From NCBI GenBank assembly GCA_965197725.1, contig CBDANQ010000003.1, positions 1 to 39,068 of the forward strand: 39,068 bases of DNA, in the 5' to 3' direction. Positions 22,801 to 34,800 of the stretch are shown in pieces. Numbering within the stretch: the stretch's first letter is position 1; every line of letters starts with the position of its first letter. This DNA is from Longimicrobiales bacterium. Its GTDB lineage: Bacteria; Gemmatimonadota; Gemmatimonadetes; Longimicrobiales; Gaopeijiaceae. Position numbers: made by a program.

Positions 22801-25800
22801 GGCCCGGTCTTTCGAGAAGCCCTACGAGAGGCCGAACAGCCCAAGCGAGTCGATCAGCCGGGACGAAGCGCGACAGCGGGAGAGCAAGCCCCAGGACGAT
22901 CAACGTGCCCAGGAGGCCCACGTTCCAGGCGGCTTCGGCCGCCGCACGAGTGGAAGCCCCGGCAGCTCCGGCGACCGTCGGATCCAGCAATCGGTGGAGC
23001 GGGAGGTAGGCGAGCGACAGCAGTGTTGCACCAAATGCTCGCGTCGCGATCAGGCGCACTCGGGCCGGCAGCCCTGCCTGGGTGTCGTCGGAGGCCACAA
23101 GGTCGGGCTCTCGGTTGGGCATGGAGGACAATCTGTCCAGGACCCAACGTTCCGGCCAGCACATGAGACCCCCCCGCGGCTAGGCGTGCCTCGCATTCTG
23201 CGATGCGCGGGCGTTGGCAGATTGCAAAATTTTCTTATACGTTCTGTGAGCTCAAGCGGGGGCGGGCGCTCGCGTCCACGCTCCGCCCGGACCCTGGGAG
23301 ACGACCACTGTGGCTGAACCGACCTCCGCCCGCGTGAATCCCGGCGAATACCAGCTACTGCGCATTGACTTGCTACGGTGGCTGTACGTCGGACGGCTCA
23401 CGCTGGTCACGGGCATTCTCGCGGGCGCCTTCTGGACGTGGTTCGAGGCGCAGCCAGATGTGCTGCTCGTAACGGTCGTGATGTTCTTGGTCGCGCTGTT
23501 CGTGACGGCGGCATCCTTTTGGTACACTCACGTCAAAGGTGCCGAGGTCGGGAAGAACTTCCTCTACTCGCAGGTCATGTTCGATGTGGCATTGGTTACC
23601 GCCATCGTCCACGTGACGCTGGGGCCGGAGAGCACCTTCGCCCCGCTCTACATCCTCGTCATCAGCGTTGGGGCGCTACTGTTGCCCCTGCCCGGGGGTG
23701 TACTGATCGGCGCCCTGGCCAGTATCACGTACTTCGCCGACCTGGTGTGGGGCTTCCAGGAGACGTTGAGCCTGAGCTTGGCGCTCCAGATCGGACTCTT
23801 CACCTTGGTGGCCCTCATCACCGGACTGCTCGGGGACCGCCTCCGCCACACGGGGCTCGCGCTGGGTGCGATGGAGTCCGAGCTCGAGCAGCTGCGGTTG
23901 GACACGAGCGACATCCTGGCCAACCTCGCCACCGGCGTCCTGACGGTCGACGGCGAGGGTCGCTTGGCATACGCCAACCTGGCGGCGGAAGGGCTGCTCG
24001 GAATTGATCGCGACGCCTTTCTGGGACGGCCGGTCCTCGCCGAGGTCGATCGCATCGCCCCGGGCCTGAGCGGGGTGCTGGAGGGATCGATCCACCACGG
24101 GCGGTCCGTAGGACGCTTCCGAACCACCGCGACGCTTTCCGACTCTCGGAAAATTCGGCTGGGCGTCAGCACCGCTGTCTTGGAGCGCTCTGGTGACGAA
24201 GCCAACTCGGTGACCGCGATCTTTCAGGACATCACGGATCTCGAACGGATCGAAGAACTCCATGTTCGCACTCAGCGCTTCGAGGCCGTTGCGGCACTCT
24301 CGGCTTCCCTGGCGCACGAGATCAAGAATCCTCTCGCGTCGATCCGCAGTTCTGTCGAGCAGCTCAGCGGCAACTCGCTCGAGTCCGACGATCGCGCCGT
24401 TCTGGAACGGCTCGTCCTATCGGAGTCGGACCGGTTGAGCCGGCTCCTCTCCGAGTTTCTCGACTACTCGGTCATGAAGATCGGGGCCAAAGAAGAGTTG
24501 GACCTCGGGGCACTGGTCCAGGACTGCATTTCGCTGAGCAAGCAGCATCCGGACCTCGCCGCGGTTGATCTGGTCACTGAGGTCGACGAAGGCCCGGTGC
24601 GCGTCATGGGGGATGGGGATCTGCTGCATCGGGCCTTGTTGAACCTGTTGCTCAACGGTGCTCAGTGGGCGGGAGACGGGGGCAGGGTCGTCGTGTCTCT
24701 GACGGCCGCCTCGGATGCCCGCGACCGTCACGGGGCCAGCTTCGAATACCCGGTGCGGCTCGCGGTCCGCGATAGTGGCCCGGGGATCGATGCCGAAACA
24801 GCGAGCCGGGTCTTCGACCCTTTCTATACGACGAAGGAGGCGGGAAGTGGGCTAGGCCTCGCGGTGGTCCACCGCGCGGTTGAGGCACACCAGGGCGTGA
24901 CGTTCGTGGATCGTGCTCCCGAGGGGGGGGCTCAGTTCGTCATCTTTCTCCCGGGGATTTCGGGGGAGCAGTCCGGAGAAGACGCGTGAGTCAGGATGTG
25001 AAGATCCTTCTGGTCGACGACGAGACCGCGATCCTCGAGACCCTCAGCATTCTCTTCCGCGGCGTCGGGTACGACGTGACAGTCGCAAACTCCGGTGCTA
25101 AGGCTCTGATCGCGCTGAGTGAAGAGAAACCGGATATCGTCCTCACCGACATCCGCATGCCTGGCGCTACCGGGCTCGAGGTGCTCGCCAAGGCGCGTGA
25201 AGTGGACGCCGAAATATCCGTGATTCTCATGACGGCCCAGGCATCTCTTCAGTCTGCGGTGCGGGCGGTGAACGAGGGGGCCTACTACTACCTGCAGAAA
25301 CCGTTTGCGAACGACGAGCTGCTCGCGATCTGCCAGCGCGCGGCTGAGGCTCGCCAGCTGAGAGTCGAGAACAGGGCTCTGAAGAAGGAGATCCAAAAAC
25401 GAACCCCGTCTGCCGAAGGTCGACCAGTCGGGGCGGCCCCCAGTTTCATAGAGGTGCTCGAACTCGCGGAAACGGTTGCGCCGACGGATTCCACGGTACT
25501 GCTCTCAGGCGAGAGCGGTACCGGCAAGGAAGTGCTGGCGCGCTACATCCACCGGCTCTCCGATCGCGCAGAGGGACCGTTCCTGTCGATCAACTGTGGC
25601 GCGCTGCCGGAGAGCCTGCTGGAAAGCGAGCTCTTCGGGCACATGAAGGGGTCGTTCACGGGTGCCGTGAAGGACAAGGAAGGTCTCCTTACCGCGGCCG
25701 CCGGTGGCACGTTTTTCCTGGACGAAATCGGCGAAATGAGCGCGGCGACCCAGGTGAAGCTGTTGCGGGCACTGCAGGAACGAGAGGTGATCCCGGTGGG

Positions 25801-31800: not shown

Positions 31801-34800
31801 CTCGGTCGGCATCACCCTCGCGCTCGGCGTGCTGGCTCTGGCCCTGGCGGCGTGGCGAAGAGGCGTCATGGCCGTGGGTCGGCCGTCGGCCCGCGTCGCG
31901 GGCTTCGGTGTCGTCTGGTTCATGATCACGGTATCGCCGGTGTCGAACGCTTTCTTCCTCGCCGGCGTGCTGCTCGCCGAACGGACGCTCTATCTGCCCT
32001 CGGTGGGGCTAGCGGCGGCGACGGGTTGGATGCTCGTCCGCTTCTGGCAGGCACGGCCGCGCGGGGCACTGGTCGCGCTCACGGTGATTCTGGTGCTCGC
32101 CAGCGTCCGGACCTGGACCCGGAACCCGACATGGAAGGACAACAATTCCATGTTGAACGCGTTGGTCGCGGACTACCCCTACTCGGGTCGCTCCCAATGG
32201 ATTCTCGGAGACGCCTTCATGGACCGTGGTCTCACCTCGGACGCGCTGCGCTCCTATCGAGCCGCGGTCGATCTGCTGGACTCGCACTACCAGATCATGA
32301 CCGATGTCGGCCAGACCCTGATGAACAAGGAGATGTACCAGTCCGCTGAGGGTCTCCTTCGGCACGCGTGGCGAAGGGAGCCGAGGTTTGCGCTCGCACC
32401 TGGCCTTCTGGCTGAGATTTACTCGATCTGGGGAGAGCTCGAAGAGGCCGAACGTCTCAGCCGCGTGGCGCTCACGCTCGATGATCGAGATCCGCTCCGT
32501 CCCAACATCATCGCCTGGTCGCTGGCGTCGCGCGGTCGGTTCGAGGAGGCAGAACAAGTTCGACAAGCGCACATCGAACGTTACGGACTGCAGAACTTCT
32601 GGCAGCAGTGGGTAACGCTGGGATATTTGAACGCCCACGCTGGCGACTCGTCAGGCGTGCGGATGGCGTTTGACGCAGCGCTCGCCGTGGACCTCTCGGC
32701 GGTCGAGCGCGCGCTAGTCGATTCGCTGCGCGCACAGGTGCTCGGACAGGCGAGGGAAGGGTGATCGGAAGCCACCCGTGCTGTTGCACGGGGCCCGCTC
32801 TTGCAAACGGCCTCGTGAGTCGCAGAATCCCACACCCACTCGGTGTTGCAGCGGCTCCACCGAGCCCTCGTCACCTACTCTAACCCGTTGTCAGATAACC
32901 TCTTAGATCGTTCGGGTCCATTTTGGGGCTCAGGCTTGCTATTTCCCCATCGTATCGCAGGGCCCGTTTCACTCATTTCTGGAGTCTCAGATCATGCGAG
33001 ACAAAAAGGGTTTCACGCTTATTGAACTCCTGATCGTGGTCGTGATCATCGGAATCCTGGCGGCCATCGCCATTCCGAAGTTCTCCGCCACCCGGGAGAA
33101 GGCGTACTTCGCAGCGATGAAGTCGGATCTCAAGAACCTGGCCAGCCAGCAGGAGATCTACTATTCCGACGCGTATGCCTACACGACGGTAACCACGGAT
33201 CTCTCGTTCACGAGCTCCGCTGGTGTCACCGTGGCCTCGGCCGCTTCCAGTTCCGGCTGGTCCGCAAGCGTCGTCCACGCCGCGCTCGGCACGGCCGAAG
33301 GTTGCGTCATCTTCTACGGTACGGCCTCCAGTCCGGCCACACCCGTGACGTCAACCGCTCCAGGTGAGATCGCCTGCACCAGTTGATTCGCTGATGCGGC
33401 GCCGGATCTCCTCCGCGACGCTGCGATAAGCACAGCTGCTGGTGGGCGGTCCGGGCCGTCAGGTCCGGGCCGCCCAGCGAGGCAGCCACTCTTCTAGCCC
33501 TCCGGCATGTCTCGACAGATCCCACGCAGGCGAGAGCTGTTGTTTCGGTTCGGCTTTCTCTTCGTGCTTGCCCTCCTGTTCGTCTTGTTCGGGATCGCCA
33601 TCCTGTTGCCTGGAATCGAGTCGACGGCCCGACGCACTCTCATCATTGGTGTTGTCGTCGCGATTGACCTCGGGGCGCTCTTCGTCTTGGGAAGTGCCGT
33701 TCTAGGGAAGTTCATGGTGAAGCCGATGGAGCTATTGGCCGAAGGCGCGCGCCGAATCGCCGGAGGCGACTATCATCACCGCATCGGGACCTCGGACAGT
33801 CTCGAGCTTCGACAGGTGCAGTCGAGCGTGAACGACATGGCGGATCGGCTCATCGCCGACCAGGAGTTGTTGGCCGAAAATGTCCAGTCACTCGAGCAGA
33901 CCAACAGAGACCTCATCGAAGCACGGGACCAGATCATCCACACCGCGCGCCTCGCTTCCGTGGGCACTCTGGCGGCGGGTATCGCTCATGAGGTCGGCAA
34001 CCCGCTGGGGGCGATCATGGCCTTCGTCGACGTGGCCAAGGCACGAGCCGAGAAAGTGGGCGGCGACATCGACTTGCTGGACTCCGTTCGCGGAGAGGCC
34101 GACCGGATCGATCGCATCGTGCGAGGTCTGCTCGACTACGCCCGCCCACGGAACGATGAGGCCGCGCCGGCCGCGCCGGCAGAGGTGCTGGCCGGTGTCC
34201 GCGACCTGCTCGAGTCCCAAGGGAAGTTGGACCGCACCGAGATGACGTGGACGCTGTCGGGCGACGCGCCCGACGTGGTCATGGGGCGTCATCGGCTCGA
34301 GCAGGTCCTGGTGATCCTGCTCCTGAACGCCCTCGCCGCTCTCGAGTCGACTCCGAATCCACGGATCTCGGTGGAACTCTTCGGGGATTCGGGCGAGGTG
34401 ACCCACCTCCCGGTGAAGCGGGTGGATGACCCGAAGGGCATCAACTACATGCACCGTCGGCGTGTCTCGAGGGACGATGGAGGTCACGGCATCGACCTCG
34501 TCTTCAATTCCCAGCGTGTGGCGGTGATCCGCGTCGAGGACAACGGGCCCGGCATTGCCGAAGACGACCTCGAAAACATATTCGACCCGTTCTTCACTAC
34601 CAAAGAACCGGGCGAGGGGACGGGGCTGGGTCTTTCTATCTGTGCTCGCCTGGTCGACGGAATGGGTGGTCAAATCCTTGCCGAGAACCGCGACGACGGG
34701 GGCGCGGCGTTTACCATTCGGCTTCCGGGCGCCCCCGAGGAGTCCCACGAGGCTGGACTGGTGGAGACGCTGTGAAGATCCTGATCATCGATGATGACGC

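What a model noticed while it worked through the whole genome (the two positions that open the first line are those of the whole stretch)
23310..33386. Type IV pilin operon with a Dpm1-like donor synthase and three TMTC-like GT-C mannosyltransferases
Between pilS-pilR and the major pilin gene lie a Dpm1-like polyprenyl-phosphate-mannose synthase and three 595-627-aa membrane proteins that match animal TMTC O-mannosyltransferases over their whole GT-C part and end in TPR repeats; the pilin has a Ser/Thr-rich C-terminal half. I read the TMTC-like enzymes as pilin O-mannosyltransferases fed by the Dpm1-like enzyme. That would give prokaryotic TMTC homologues their first substrate and a bacterial counterpart of the cadherin O-mannosylation pathway of animals.
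Evidence so far: g00060-g00066, one strand. Swiss-Prot: g00064 26% to mouse TMTC3 over residues 11-485 (2e-26), g00062 and g00065 25% to TMTC-type enzymes (4e-18, 1e-24), g00063 31% to DPM1 (1e-23). Pilin g00066 has the FTLIELLIVV type IV N-terminus and 25 Ser/Thr in its last 70 residues. In 39 related Gemmatimonadota loci of >=12 kb (Longimicrobiales, Gemmatimonadales, Gemmatimonas) the order pilS-pilR-dpm1-like-(1 to 3 TMTC-like)-pilin(s) recurs: pilin in 34, dpm1-like in 34, pilR in 34 of 39. TMTC motifs kept: F-x-Y-D-D after the first helix in g00062, g00064, g00065, g02058; (Y/W)RP 35-40 residues later; LLFAVHPVH versus human TMTC3 LLFAVHPIH. TMTC papers listed hold no mention of pilin; PMC7801869 (pass [...]
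(Added by a program. Inside this text positions count along the whole contig: contig position 1 is position 1 of the stretch shown here. "Call 12" and the like, gene names such as g00115 and contig names such as C1 are that model's own, and its searches are not shown. The text may have been shortened before it was handed on; [...] marks where a part breaks off. The agent that wrote the report below was given it as the finding of a first reader that could run no searches.)

Follow-up and report, generated by a model that had tools for sequence, protein, structure and literature searches.

The report
Pilin sugar-coating gene cluster in Gemmatimonadota
Next to the main pilus-subunit gene of this Gemmatimonadota bacterium lie four membrane sugar-transferases and the enzyme that makes their lipid-linked sugar, which most likely decorate the pilus with sugars, a design already known from the Pseudomonas enzyme TfpW.

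Summary
Window 23310-33386 encodes a PilS-like kinase, a sigma-54 PilR-like regulator, three 595-627-aa GT-C-fold membrane enzymes with C-terminal TPR arrays, a Dpm1/AglJ-like GT2 and a type IVa pilin. I add a fourth GT-C gene, ArnT/PMT_2-like and without TPR, at 21026-23164 on the minus strand.

The order recurs in Gemmatimonadota. A pilin lies within 1 kb of a GT-C in 40 of 50 loci with enough flank. A predicted GT-C3/pilin complex scores 0.74 against 0.00 for the best control.

The TMTC likeness is real but below threshold. DD, (Y/W)RP, KE...T, D-Y and ERxxY motifs are present, as is LLFAVHPVH. PF08409 gives only weak hits.

The claim of a "first substrate" is overstated. Pseudomonas TfpW is a proven pilin glycosyltransferase with 11 TM helices, GT-C fold, DDX, a periplasmic TPR and a YX6PFX7P motif. 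The window enzymes carry that motif as Y-x6-P-(L/M)-x7-P.

The sugar is unresolved. The genome also holds an unlinked DPPRS-DprE1-DprE2 D-arabinofuranose donor operon.

This scan has noted TfpW-like GT-C/TPR genes beside pilins before, on other DNA. Verdict: a new variant of a known kind.

The parts
21026..23164 (-). Fourth lipid-linked-sugar glycosyltransferase candidate. It is 712 aa, GT-C fold, ArnT/PMT_2-like, and has a C-terminal alpha/beta domain but no TPR.
   Evidence: No Pfam hit. AF2 model on 17 sequences: pLDDT 86.9, pTM 0.89. The listed Foldseek matches down to E about 7e-3 (ranks 1-37) are all GT-C enzymes: STT3, ALG9, AglB, PglB, ArnT, Pmt4, AftA/B, ALG12, Emb. Atlas neighbours are Gemmatimonadota PMT_2/ArnT-family clusters at 0.99. 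Homologues occur in 20 of 74 related loci, at E 4e-8 to 3e-195.
23310..24989 (+). PilS-like sensor histidine kinase (559 aa).
   Evidence: 6TM_PilS 9.7e-8, PAS, HisKA, HATPase_c. Present in 32 of 42 loci with at least 8 kb upstream.
24986..26350 (+). PilR-like sigma-54-dependent response regulator (454 aa). Its start overlaps the pilS stop by 4 nt.
   Evidence: Response_reg, Sigma54_activat 1e-68, HTH_8. Present in 33 of 42 loci.
26347..28206 (+). GT-C/TPR glycosyltransferase 1 (619 aa), TfpW-like and TMTC-like.
   Evidence: TPR families only above threshold. PF08409 at E 0.15 and 0.05 in the EL4 loop. Motifs FAYDD, WRP, HPVH, KE, Y-x6-P-L-x7-P, ERTLY.
28208..29089 (+). GT2 polyprenyl-phosphate sugar synthase candidate (293 aa, no TM segment), Dpm1/AglJ-like.
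   Evidence: Glycos_transf_2 2.4e-35. The best NCBIfam match is AglJ, 1.6e-34, at 119.7 bits against a cut-off of 325. Next come a Dol-P-hexose transferase, ArnC, PpgS and PgfS. The best solved relative is P. furiosus Dol-P-Man synthase 5mlz at 1.5e-21, then ArnC and GtrB. It lies within 3 kb of a GT-C in 37 of 58 loci.
29097..30884 (+). GT-C/TPR glycosyltransferase 2 (595 aa).
   Evidence: AF2 pLDDT 87.9. Residues 1-417 align to AglB 3waj (Z 20.6, 339 aligned), Pmt1-Pmt2 6p2r_B (Z 18.8, 346), STT3 (Z 18.3), Pmt4 (Z 17.9) and ArnT 5f15 (Z 17.3). Motifs D31-D32, Y66-R67-P68, K184-E185...T189, D280-Y281, E347-R348-x-x-Y351.
30881..32764 (+). GT-C/TPR glycosyltransferase 3 (627 aa). It lies next to the pilin and is the type kept in the closest single-GT-C loci.
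   Evidence: It is the phmmer best label in L010, L011, L012, L014 and L031. Motifs. Predicted complex with the pilin: 0.74 against a best control of 0.00.
32926..32940 (+). Sigma-54-type -24/-12 element, GG-N8-TTGCT, 54 nt before the pilin ATG.
   Evidence: Read. The same pattern lies upstream of 23 of 72 related pilin genes, against 2.3% of shuffled upstream regions. No sigma-70-like site in 32700-33560.
32994..33386 (+). Major type IVa pilin (130 aa) and proposed acceptor. The alpha-beta loop is Ser/Thr-rich, and a Ser/Thr/Pro/Ala-rich stretch lies inside the C-terminal disulphide loop.
   Evidence: N_methyl 1.1e-10. Myxococcus-type PilA NCBIfam 4.1e-16, below cut-off. Ser+Thr make up 36% beyond mature residue 55, against 10.8% in long ORFs of the genome; two Cys. 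Alignment A3.
33443..33476 (+). Stable GC-rich hairpin after the pilin gene, a possible terminator or RNA stabiliser.
   Evidence: RNA fold of 33387-33506: -69.4 kcal/mol, z -4.37, 0 of 200 shuffles as stable. The terminator scan does not call it because there is no T run.
33507..34775 (+). Second sensor kinase (HAMP, HisKA, HATPase_c; 422 aa).
   Evidence: Present in 25 of 46 loci of at least 12 kb.
34772..36130 (+). Second sigma-54-dependent response regulator (452 aa).
   Evidence: Present in 25 of 46 loci of at least 12 kb.

Best explanation
The locus encodes a periplasmic O-glycosylation module for the major type IV pilin. It is built like the Pseudomonas TfpW system and like 'three-component' lipid-linked glycosylation.

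Step 1 (inferred from family). The soluble GT2 (28208-29089) loads a monosaccharide from a nucleotide sugar onto polyprenyl phosphate at the cytoplasmic face.

Step 2 (unknown). The lipid-linked sugar is flipped. No GtrA-type flippase was found.

Step 3 (fold, motifs and topology computed; activity inferred). Three paralogous 11-TM GT-C enzymes carry a periplasmic TPR domain. They hold the membrane-anchored pilin by its N-terminal helix and globular domain. They transfer the sugar to Ser/Thr of the alpha-beta loop and/or of the Ser/Thr/Pro-rich disulphide loop. The upstream ArnT/PMT_2-like GT-C probably takes part as well.

Several GT-Cs suggest either different sites or linkages, or stepwise building of a short glycan.

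The GT genes are translationally coupled to pilS-pilR. The pilin has its own sigma-54 promoter, so glycosylation capacity and pilin supply fall under the same two-component control.

The sugar is not determined. A hexose from the linked Dpm1-like enzyme is most likely (mannose perhaps 35%). D-arabinofuranose is possible in this genome.
For: Fold. The membrane domain of GT-C2 aligns over about 340 residues with AglB, Pmt1/2, STT3, Pmt4, ArnT, ALG12 and PglB at Z 16-21, on a model of pLDDT 87.9.

Catalytic and donor motifs. They are invariant or nearly so in 42 homologues and are kept in all five genomic paralogues.

TMTC signature. The motifs of PMC7801869 Table 4 (passages) are found as DD, (Y/W)RP, R/x-x-E, KE-x3-T, D-Y, P-x-x-N and ERxxY. 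LLFAVHPVH compares with LLFAVHPIH of human TMTC3. The three best PF08409 hits in the whole genome all fall in the EL4 loop of paralogues, at E 0.011-0.05. Thirty of 42 homologues give a weak PF08409 hit, best 2.3e-4.

TfpW precedent (passages). TfpW has 646 aa, 11 TM helices, GT-C fold, an essential DDX motif, a TPR that PhoA fusions place in the periplasm, ArnT as best template, a position next to pilA, and a YX6PFX7P motif. The window enzymes have Y-x6-P-(L/M)-x7-P at the same loop.

GT2. The best solved relative is Dol-P-Man synthase, then ArnC and GtrB.

Synteny. A pilin lies within 1 kb of a GT-C in 40 of 50 loci. The GT2 lies within 3 kb in 37 of 58. pilR is present in 33 of 42. The order pilR<GT2<pilin on one strand holds in 20 of 23 complete loci. 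Further GT-C genes (PMT_2 or GT87 type) sit in the same loci in 6 of 16 gap proteins tested.

Predicted complex of GT-C3 with pilin 7-130. The median score is 0.74 and the best of 3 controls is 0.00. That mark was reached by 116 of 157 solved complexes and by 2 of 215 mismatched pairs, and these counts hold only roughly because my own alignments were used. Runs agree in at least 96% of contacts, and partner pLDDT is at least 82. Contacts are pilin helix 7-28 with TM segments 204-218, 301-326 and 345-348, and pilin 33-59 and 70-76 with EL4 261-269 and TPR 452-499. I know of no solved GT-C/pilin complex, so a pass from memory is unlikely.

Pilus machinery elsewhere in the genome. Full-length T2SSE ATPases and a prepilin peptidase are present.
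Against: There are no glycan or mass data.

Ser/Thr richness is common in type IV pilins, so the 36% is weak evidence.

The family is very large: 64,329 representatives at E<=1e-3. It is not pilin-dedicated. Two of the five paralogues in this genome lie away from pilins. So do 10 of 10 paralogue loci in a Planctomycetota genome. Four related loci have neither a pilin nor pilR.

Ten of the 50 loci lack a pilin within 1 kb.

The complex controls may not have been membrane proteins. A generic docking of the hydrophobic pilin helix onto a membrane domain is therefore not excluded, and the catalytic DD is not in the listed interface.

No flippase was found; PF04138 gave no match in a genome that is 88.9% complete.

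The GT2 reaches no equivalog cut-off.

I could not align the enzymes with a TfpW or TMTC sequence directly.
Confidence: 0.65

Rival explanations
1. The GT-C/TPR enzymes form a broader periplasmic protein O-glycosylation system. They modify several exported Ser/Thr-rich proteins, and the pilin is only one client or none. The linkage to pilSR-pilA reflects co-regulation.
For: This genome has five paralogues, and two of them (C56:9660-11504 and C1:56-1963) are not beside pilins. A Planctomycetota genome has at least 10 paralogues with no pilin, GT2 or pilSR nearby, 0 of 10. The family is very large. The actinobacterial Ppm1/Pmt pair modifies many proteins (abstract of PMC5882110 in the listing).
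Against: The locus-linked paralogues keep tight adjacency to pilin genes, 40 of 50. The predicted complex with the pilin passes its controls. TfpW is pilin-specific.
Confidence: 0.15
2. The enzymes modify a lipid or polysaccharide of the envelope, in the way ArnC/ArnT act on lipid A or Gtr systems act on O antigen or exopolysaccharide. They are co-expressed with pili because both serve surface behaviour.
For: ArnC is among the best matches of the GT2. ArnT is a close structural match of both GT-C types. A GT2 synthase with a GT-C transferase is the classical glycan-modifying three-component layout (passages of PMC11127046).
Against: The C-terminal TPR array is the feature shared with the protein-modifying enzymes TfpW and TMTC. 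The modification genes are linked to pilin genes and not to polysaccharide genes. The predicted pilin complex passes.
Confidence: 0.12
3. The TPR-bearing membrane proteins are pilus-assembly factors, like the PilF/PilW pilotins, and no longer act as enzymes.
For: The TPR parts give weak matches to the type_IV_pilW model, at 2e-9 and 3.5e-10, below its cut-off. They also match the PilW and PilF structures at Z about 18.
Against: TPR arrays match each other generically. The catalytic DD and the donor-binding motifs are invariant across 42 homologues and all five paralogues, which argues for retained catalysis.
Confidence: 0.03

Closest known systems
TfpW of Pseudomonas aeruginosa group IV strains Pa5196/PA7, a pilin D-arabinofuranosyl transferase (bioRxiv 10.1101/2020.04.19.049825, passages read)
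   Same: Both are GT-C enzymes of about 600-650 aa with 11 TM helices. Both have a DD(X) motif in the first periplasmic loop and a periplasmic C-terminal TPR domain. ArnT is a close structural relative of both. Both carry a Y-x6-P-x-x7-P motif in the loop before the last TM segments. Both are encoded next to the major pilin gene and use a lipid-phosphate-linked monosaccharide donor.
   Different: Here there are three TPR paralogues plus an ArnT-like GT-C. They lie upstream of the pilin, between pilSR and pilA, not downstream of pilA. The linked donor enzyme is a Dpm1/AglJ-like GT2 and not the DPPRS/DprE1/DprE2 pentofuranose pathway; that pathway exists in this genome but is unlinked. The motif has L/M where TfpW has F. 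The phylum is Gemmatimonadota. Direct sequence comparison with TfpW could not be run.
Animal TMTC1-4 cadherin O-mannosyltransferases (PMC7801869: abstract and passages)
   Same: Both have an 11-TM GT-C domain followed by TPR repeats on the extracytoplasmic side. Shared motifs are DD in EL1, YRP in EL1, KE...T in EL3, an acidic-aromatic pair in EL4, ERxxY in EL5, and LLFAVHP(I/V)H in TM3. The paper itself notes full-length, uncharacterised prokaryotic homologues.
   Different: PF08409 is only sub-threshold, best 17.4 bits against 27. The SHKS part of M2 and the second Pro of M6 are missing. M5 is D-Y and not D-W. The acceptor proposed here is a pilin and not a cadherin EC domain. The sugar is not known to be mannose.
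Actinobacterial Ppm1 + Pmt protein O-mannosylation (abstracts in the listing, e.g. PMC5882110)
   Same: A Dpm1-like polyprenyl-phosphate sugar synthase feeds an extracytoplasmic GT-C that modifies Ser/Thr-rich exported proteins.
   Different: Pmt belongs to the PMT family and lacks TPR repeats. It acts on many proteins and is not linked to pilin genes.
Three-component periplasmic glycosylation systems: GtrA/GtrB/Gtr*, and GT136 systems (PMC11127046, passages)
   Same: A cytoplasmic polyprenyl-phosphate sugar synthase works with a periplasmic GT-C transferase.
   Different: Those systems modify O antigens. They include a recognisable flippase (GtrA/SMR or MATE), which was not found here. Their GT-Cs lack TPR domains.
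TfpO/PilO and PglL pilin O-oligosaccharyltransferases (as described; family assignment recalled)
   Same: They O-glycosylate pilin in the periplasm. tfpO lies next to pilA.
   Different: They are a different enzyme family. They transfer preassembled undecaprenyl-pyrophosphate-linked oligosaccharides, not monosaccharides from a monophosphate carrier.

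Membership tests
GT-C fold glycosyltransferases (lipid-phosphate-sugar dependent) | Multi-span membrane domain with the GT-C fold | tested here: met
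   Residues 1-417 of GT-C2 align to AglB (Z 20.6, rmsd 5.5, 339 aligned), Pmt1/2 (Z 18.8, 346), STT3, Pmt4, ArnT, ALG12 and PglB. For the 712-aa protein, the Foldseek matches down to E about 7e-3 are all GT-C enzymes.
GT-C fold glycosyltransferases (lipid-phosphate-sugar dependent) | Acidic catalytic pair in the first extracytoplasmic loop | tested here: met
   D31-D32 is invariant in 42 sequences. DD is present in all five paralogues.
TMTC (Pfam PF08409 TMTC_DUF1736; motifs M1-M7 of PMC7801869) | Pfam PF08409 above its gathering score | tested here: not met
   The best score is 17.4 bits against 27, at E 0.011 per genome. The three best hits in the genome all fall in the EL4 loop of paralogues. 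Thirty of 42 homologues hit weakly, best 2.3e-4.
TMTC (Pfam PF08409 TMTC_DUF1736; motifs M1-M7 of PMC7801869) | Motifs M1 DD, M4 KE(T/Q)xxT and M7 ERxxY | tested here: met
   The window enzymes show DD, KE-x3-T (third residue I/G/H, not T/Q) and ERTLY/ERFFY. The motifs are listed in the paper's Table 4.
TMTC (Pfam PF08409 TMTC_DUF1736; motifs M1-M7 of PMC7801869) | Motifs M2 SHKSYRP, M3 RxD, M5 DW and M6 PxxP | tested here: inconclusive
   Only (Y/W)RP of M2 is present. M3 appears as R-x-E in two paralogues and x-x-E in the others. M5 is D-Y. M6 is P-x-x-N/H.
TMTC (Pfam PF08409 TMTC_DUF1736; motifs M1-M7 of PMC7801869) | 11 TM helices followed by extracytoplasmic TPR repeats | tested here: met
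   The model gives 11 membrane helices and then 9-10 TPR-type helices. TPR families are hit. Lys/Arg clusters lie in the loops predicted to be cytoplasmic. The side of the membrane is inferred, not measured.
TMTC (Pfam PF08409 TMTC_DUF1736; motifs M1-M7 of PMC7801869) | Significant pairwise similarity to animal TMTC sequences | not testable with these tools
Indirect support: a chordate DUF1736 cluster at rank 21, score 0.93. LLFAVHPVH compares with LLFAVHPIH of TMTC3. JGI names 5 of the 120 listed homologues 'protein O-mannosyl-transferase'.
TMTC (Pfam PF08409 TMTC_DUF1736; motifs M1-M7 of PMC7801869) | Transfers mannose from a polyprenyl/dolichyl-phosphate-mannose donor | not testable with these tools
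   The GT2's nearest solved relative is a Dol-P-Man synthase. A ManC-like gene is present at C53:5570-6589. Specificity cannot be read from these data.
TfpW-type pilin glycosyltransferases | GT-C with 11 TM helices, DDX in loop 1 and a periplasmic C-terminal TPR | tested here: met
   against the description.
TfpW-type pilin glycosyltransferases | YX6PFX7P motif in the periplasmic loop before the TPR domain | tested here: met
   All five paralogues have Y-x6-P-(L/M)-x7-P. Y267, P274 and P283 are invariant in A1. F is replaced by L or M.
TfpW-type pilin glycosylation systems | Encoded next to the major pilin gene | tested here: met
   There are 229 nt between GT-C3 and the pilin. A pilin lies within 1 kb in 40 of 50 related loci. 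The position is upstream of the pilin, not downstream.
TfpW-type pilin glycosyltransferases | Sequence homology to TfpW itself | not testable with these tools
   No TfpW sequence could be reached. The plasmid tblastn gave no match. No genome handle in Pseudomonadota was available.
TfpW-type pilin glycosylation systems | Donor from a DPPRS/DprE1/DprE2 D-Araf pathway | tested here: inconclusive
   The operon is present in this genome at C43:462-3485. DPPRS scores 254.8 bits, over its cut-off of 207. DprE1 is at 6e-131 and DprE2 at 3e-66, both just under their cut-offs. It is unlinked. It is absent from all 74 related loci. It is found in 10 of 151 sampled genomes of the phylum, against 72 of 151 for the GT-C.
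Dpm1/GtrB/ArnC-class polyprenyl-phosphate glycosyltransferases (GT2) | GT-A GT2 domain with a DXD motif, most similar to characterised polyprenyl-phosphate sugar synthases | tested here: met
   PF00535 at 2.4e-35. The best NCBIfam rows are AglJ, Dol-P-hexose transferase, ArnC, PpgS and PgfS, none over its cut-off. PDB matches are DPMS at 1.5e-21, ArnC at 3.5e-14 and GtrB at 1.9e-10. QDADLEYD is read in the sequence.
Three-component periplasmic glycosylation (synthase + flippase + GT-C) | A dedicated flippase (GtrA/SMR or MATE type) in the locus | tested here: not met
   No candidate lies in the window. PF04138 gave no match in the whole genome, which is 88.9% complete. MATE and SMR families were not searched.

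The most novel reading that the evidence does not exclude
Bacterial GT-C/TPR enzymes of the TfpW type and the animal TMTCs would be one ancient family of acceptor-specific protein O-glycosyltransferases, whose original clients were type IV pilins. The enzyme would recognise the pilin by docking its N-terminal membrane helix in a groove of the GT-C domain, while the TPR arm holds the globular head. In Gemmatimonadota a cascade of four to five GT-Cs, fed by one Dpm1-like synthase, would build a mannose-type oligosaccharide on the pilin under PilS-PilR control. That would be a bacterial counterpart, and possibly the ancestor, of cadherin O-mannosylation.
Probability: 0.2. Interest if true: 0.75.

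Novelty: new variant of a known kind. Interest (0 to 1): 0.45.

Why it matters
Pilin glycosylation changes pilus stability and protects against pilus-specific phages. The phage point rests on the abstract of bioRxiv 10.1101/150227, seen in the listing.

The locus would extend TfpW-type glycosylation to an environmental phylum, with a different donor enzyme and several cooperating GT-Cs.

It also ties TfpW to the TMTC motif set. The searched library holds no relevant paper with both 'TMTC' and 'pilin': one search returned 1 paper, which is off-topic.

A small, abundant, easily purified acceptor such as a pilin would make TPR-guided acceptor choice in TMTC-like enzymes directly testable. That choice is still unresolved for the human disease genes.

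Tried and rejected
Structure and sequence searches dominated by the TPR. Foldseek on the full GT-C2 model returned only TPR proteins. The PDB sequence search did the same. The GT-C fold appeared only in the all-against-all VIA search.

Attempts to reach a TfpW sequence.
- tblastn of the GT-C domain against plasmids gave no match.
- I fetched an E. coli K-12 stretch as a stepping stone to Gammaproteobacteria.
- The 'handles' call gave only a record handle without relatives. I stopped there, so direct TfpW and TMTC alignments are missing.

Flippase. PF04138 gave no match in the genome.

D-Araf donor as the conserved donor: rejected. No DPPRS, DprE1 or DprE2 homologue lies in the 74 related loci. 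DprE1 is in 10 of 151 sampled genomes, and only 6 of those 10 have the GT-C at E<=1e-20, against 72 of 151 overall.

Pilin linkage outside the phylum. It was 0 of 10 paralogue loci in one Planctomycetota genome.

Promoters and terminators. No sigma-70-like promoter and no canonical terminator were found around the pilin.

Earlier notes. The look-up by place (relatives) returned nothing.

Not done. MATE and SMR flippase families, a phylogeny of the paralogues, and heteromer prediction among the GT-Cs.

Full report
WHAT IS THERE

Between 23310 and 33386 the + strand carries seven genes:
- a 559-aa kinase with the PilS-type six-helix membrane domain, PAS, HisKA and HATPase_c;
- a 454-aa sigma-54-dependent response regulator;
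- a 619-aa membrane protein;
- a 293-aa GT2;
- two more membrane proteins of 595 and 627 aa;
- after 229 nt, a 130-aa type IVa pilin.

Pfam and NCBIfam confirm the kinase, the regulator, the GT2 (PF00535, 2.4e-35) and the prepilin N-terminus (1.1e-10). For the three membrane proteins they give only TPR families in the C-terminal third.

Stops and starts overlap or nearly touch from pilS through the last membrane protein. The pilin is preceded by GG-N8-TTGCT at 32926-32940. That pattern lies upstream of 23 of 72 related pilin genes, against 2.3% of shuffled upstream regions. The pilin is followed by a very stable hairpin (z -4.37). No sigma-70-like site or canonical terminator was found there.

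Downstream lie a second kinase and a second sigma-54 regulator.

THE MEMBRANE PROTEINS ARE GT-C ENZYMES

An AlphaFold2 model of the 595-aa protein, built on 42 homologues, has pLDDT 87.9. Foldseek and the PDB sequence search saw only the TPR part.

The all-against-all structural search aligned residues 1-417 with known GT-C enzymes:
- archaeal AglB (Z 20.6, 339 residues);
- yeast Pmt1-Pmt2 (Z 18.8, 346 residues);
- human STT3 (Z 18.3);
- Pmt4 (Z 17.9);
- ArnT (Z 17.3);
- ALG12 and PglB.

The model has eleven membrane helices followed by TPR helices. Lys/Arg clusters sit in the loops predicted to be cytoplasmic. This puts the DD loop, the other conserved loops and the TPR array in the periplasm. 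That placement is an inference.

The domain's family is very large. It has 64,329 representatives at 50% identity with E<=1e-3, and 1,911 with E<=1e-30.

HOW TMTC-LIKE ARE THEY?

PMC7801869 (abstract and passages) defines seven TMTC motifs. It notes uncharacterised full-length prokaryotic homologues. All five paralogues of this genome compare as follows.

- M1 is present as DD.
- M2 is present only as (Y/W)RP.
- M3 appears as an acidic residue at the RxD position.
- M4 is present as KE-x3-T.
- M5 is D-Y, where TMTC has DW.
- M6 is P-x-x-N/H, where TMTC has PxxP.
- M7 is an exact ERxxY.

LLFAVHPVH of the 595-aa protein compares with LLFAVHPIH of human TMTC3, as printed in the paper.

PF08409 is the only non-TPR Pfam family that appears, always below threshold:
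- E 0.031 and 0.15 on two N-terminal domains;
- the three best hits in the whole six-frame genome all fall in the EL4 loop of paralogues (E 0.011-0.05);
- 30 of 42 homologues hit weakly (best 2.3e-4).

The protein atlas places the domain among bacterial PMT_2 clusters (0.99). A chordate DUF1736 cluster comes at rank 21 (0.93). JGI names 5 of the 120 listed homologues 'protein O-mannosyl-transferase'.

My reading is that these are TMTC-like in motifs and architecture, but not members by the Pfam test.

THE DECISIVE COMPARISON IS WITH TfpW

The preprint on Pseudomonas TfpW (passages) describes a 646-aa GT-C enzyme with these features:
- 11 predicted TM helices;
- an essential DDX motif;
- a C-terminal TPR domain shown by PhoA fusions to be periplasmic;
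- ArnT as best template;
- a conserved YX6PFX7P motif;
- a gene next to pilA.

TfpW is necessary and sufficient in PAO1 to put D-arabinofuranose on the pilin. The window enzymes share every one of these features. That includes Y-x6-P-(L/M)-x7-P at invariant positions Y267, P274 and P283.

So a GT-C/TPR enzyme with a pilin substrate is already known.

The one paper in the library that holds both 'TMTC' and 'pilin' is off-topic. The listing for 'TfpW' showed no TMTC paper among the 30 of 59 papers listed. The TfpW-TMTC connection therefore seems not to be in print there. Supplements were not consulted.

I could not fetch a TfpW sequence, so homology to TfpW rests on the described features.

THE LINK TO PILINS

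From one genome per species, 74 related loci were fetched. All but one come from Gemmatimonadota-labelled or unlabelled MAGs. Window proteins were searched against their six-frame ORFs. The results were as follows.

- Of 50 loci with at least 1 kb beyond the last GT-C, 40 have a pilin within 1 kb.
- The GT2 lies within 3 kb in 37 of 58 loci.
- pilR is present in 33 of 42 loci.
- Of 46 loci of at least 12 kb, 35 have a pilin, 34 the GT2 and 33 pilR. Twenty-three have all three, and 20 of those 23 show the order pilR<GT2<pilin on one strand.

The ten loci without a nearby pilin are L019, L032, L043, L053, L057, L061, L065, L067, L068 and L074. Four loci have neither a pilin nor pilR.

In a sample of 151 genomes of the phylum, the GT-C domain was found in 72, in 42 of 82 genera, and in only 3 of 16 other genomes of the window's own family. 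It is an accessory trait.

The family is not pilin-dedicated. Two of this genome's five paralogues lie elsewhere. In a Planctomycetota genome, none of 10 paralogue loci has a pilin, GT2 or pilSR nearby.

A FOURTH GT-C

The 712-aa ORF at 21026-23164 lies on the minus strand, divergent from pilS. It had no Pfam hit.
- It has homologues in 20 of the 74 loci. They lie either in the same divergent position or between the GT2 and the GT-C/TPR genes.
- Its atlas neighbours are PMT_2/ArnT-family clusters.
- Its model (pLDDT 86.9) matches only GT-C enzymes among the listed Foldseek rows down to E about 7e-3.

Other genes filling the gaps in Gemmatimonadales loci also hit GT-C families. Five of 16 hit PMT_2, two of them over the cut-off, one hits GT87, and ten hit no family. 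The pil locus of this phylum thus collects several lipid-sugar-dependent transferases. That fits multi-site or stepwise glycosylation.

THE DONOR

The GT2 has no membrane segment. Its best NCBIfam rows are AglJ, a Dol-P-hexose transferase, ArnC, PpgS and PgfS, none over its cut-off. Its best solved relative is Pyrococcus furiosus Dol-P-Man synthase (1.5e-21), then ArnC and GtrB. It is therefore a polyprenyl-phosphate sugar synthase of unknown sugar.

A ManC-like gene exists in the genome. No GtrA-type flippase was found in a genome that is 88.9% complete.

Unexpectedly, contig C43 carries DPPRS (254.8 bits, over its cut-off), DprE1 (6e-131) and DprE2 (3e-66) in a row. This is the pathway that makes the D-arabinofuranose donor of TfpW. 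It is unlinked to the pil locus. It is absent from all 74 related loci. It occurs in only 10 of 151 sampled genomes, and 6 of those 10 also have the GT-C.

The conserved donor is therefore more likely the product of the linked GT2. In this genome, arabinofuranose may be a second donor.

PREDICTED BINDING

GT-C3 (alignment of 30 rows) was folded with pilin residues 7-130 (alignment of 28 rows). The median score was 0.74 and the best of three controls was 0.00. That mark was reached by 116 of 157 solved complexes and by 2 of 215 mismatched pairs, and these counts hold only roughly with my own alignments. Runs agreed in at least 96% of contacts, and partner pLDDT was at least 82.

The pilin's N-terminal helix lies against TM segments 204-218, 301-326 and 345-348. 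Pilin 33-59 and the Ser/Thr-rich 70-76 touch EL4 (261-269, including the invariant R267) and the TPR (452-499).

The model supports binding but does not show it. The controls may not have been membrane proteins. The catalytic DD is not in the listed interface.

VERDICT

The most likely reading (0.65) is a TfpW-like, TMTC-related pilin O-glycosylation module. It would be fed by a polyprenyl-phosphate sugar and placed under PilSR control.

The rivals are a broader protein glycosylation system (0.15), a glycan or lipid acceptor (0.12) and a non-catalytic assembly role (0.03).

It is a new variant of a known kind. This scan has already noted TfpW-like GT-C/TPR genes beside pilins in other phyla. 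There are 56 such notes. I treated them as unchecked leads, read after I had reached TfpW through the literature.

Noticed in passing
L095:462-3485 (G000 contig C43, outside the window): Three genes in a row encode DPPRS (over its NCBIfam cut-off), DprE1 and DprE2. This is a polyprenyl-phospho-D-arabinofuranose pathway like the one that feeds TfpW and mycobacterial arabinan. It was found in only 10 of 151 sampled genomes of the phylum.
   Followed up: partly
window 9437-13416: A 173-aa fragment holds only the C-terminal part of a T2SSE (PilB/PilT-type) ATPase. It is followed by a Mutator-family transposase (10330-11379) and then an intact PilC-like T2SSF gene (12103-13416). This looks like a pilus ATPase gene cut by an insertion sequence. 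Full-length T2SSE genes exist elsewhere in the genome.
   Followed up: partly
window 982-2448 (-) and 37471-38632 (-): There are further insertion-sequence genes. One is a DDE_Tnp_1/DUF772 transposase. At the right end there is an IS3-like pair, judged by eye from the translations only. The pil locus sits in an IS-rich stretch.
   Followed up: no
window 33507-36130: A second kinase and sigma-54 regulator pair lies directly after the pilin. It is conserved in 25 of 46 related loci of at least 12 kb. It recalls the PilS2/PilR2 pair of Myxococcus; that comparison is recalled, not tested.
   Followed up: partly
G000 C61:183930-184325: A second major-pilin paralogue of 131 aa has a near-identical N-terminal half and 31% Ser+Thr in its head. 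It has no GT-C or GT2 neighbours. Most related loci carry two tandem pilins, whereas the window has one.
   Followed up: partly
G001 (Planctomycetota genome behind L073); loci L085-L094: At least ten paralogues of the same GT-C family occur in one 9.1-Mb genome, several with long TPR tails. None is near pilin, GT2 or pilSR genes. Their acceptors are unknown.
   Followed up: partly
L017, L030, L032, L038, L049, L051, L052, L065 (genes between pilR or the GT2 and the GT-C/TPR gene): These 500-1000-aa ORFs on the + strand, inside Gemmatimonadales pil loci, give no Pfam hit and do not match the 712-aa GT-C. They may be further divergent membrane transferases.
   Followed up: no
window 5475-7917 (-): Two adjacent genes encode surface-type proteins with LRR, He_PIG, Big_2 and PKD-like domains.
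   Followed up: no
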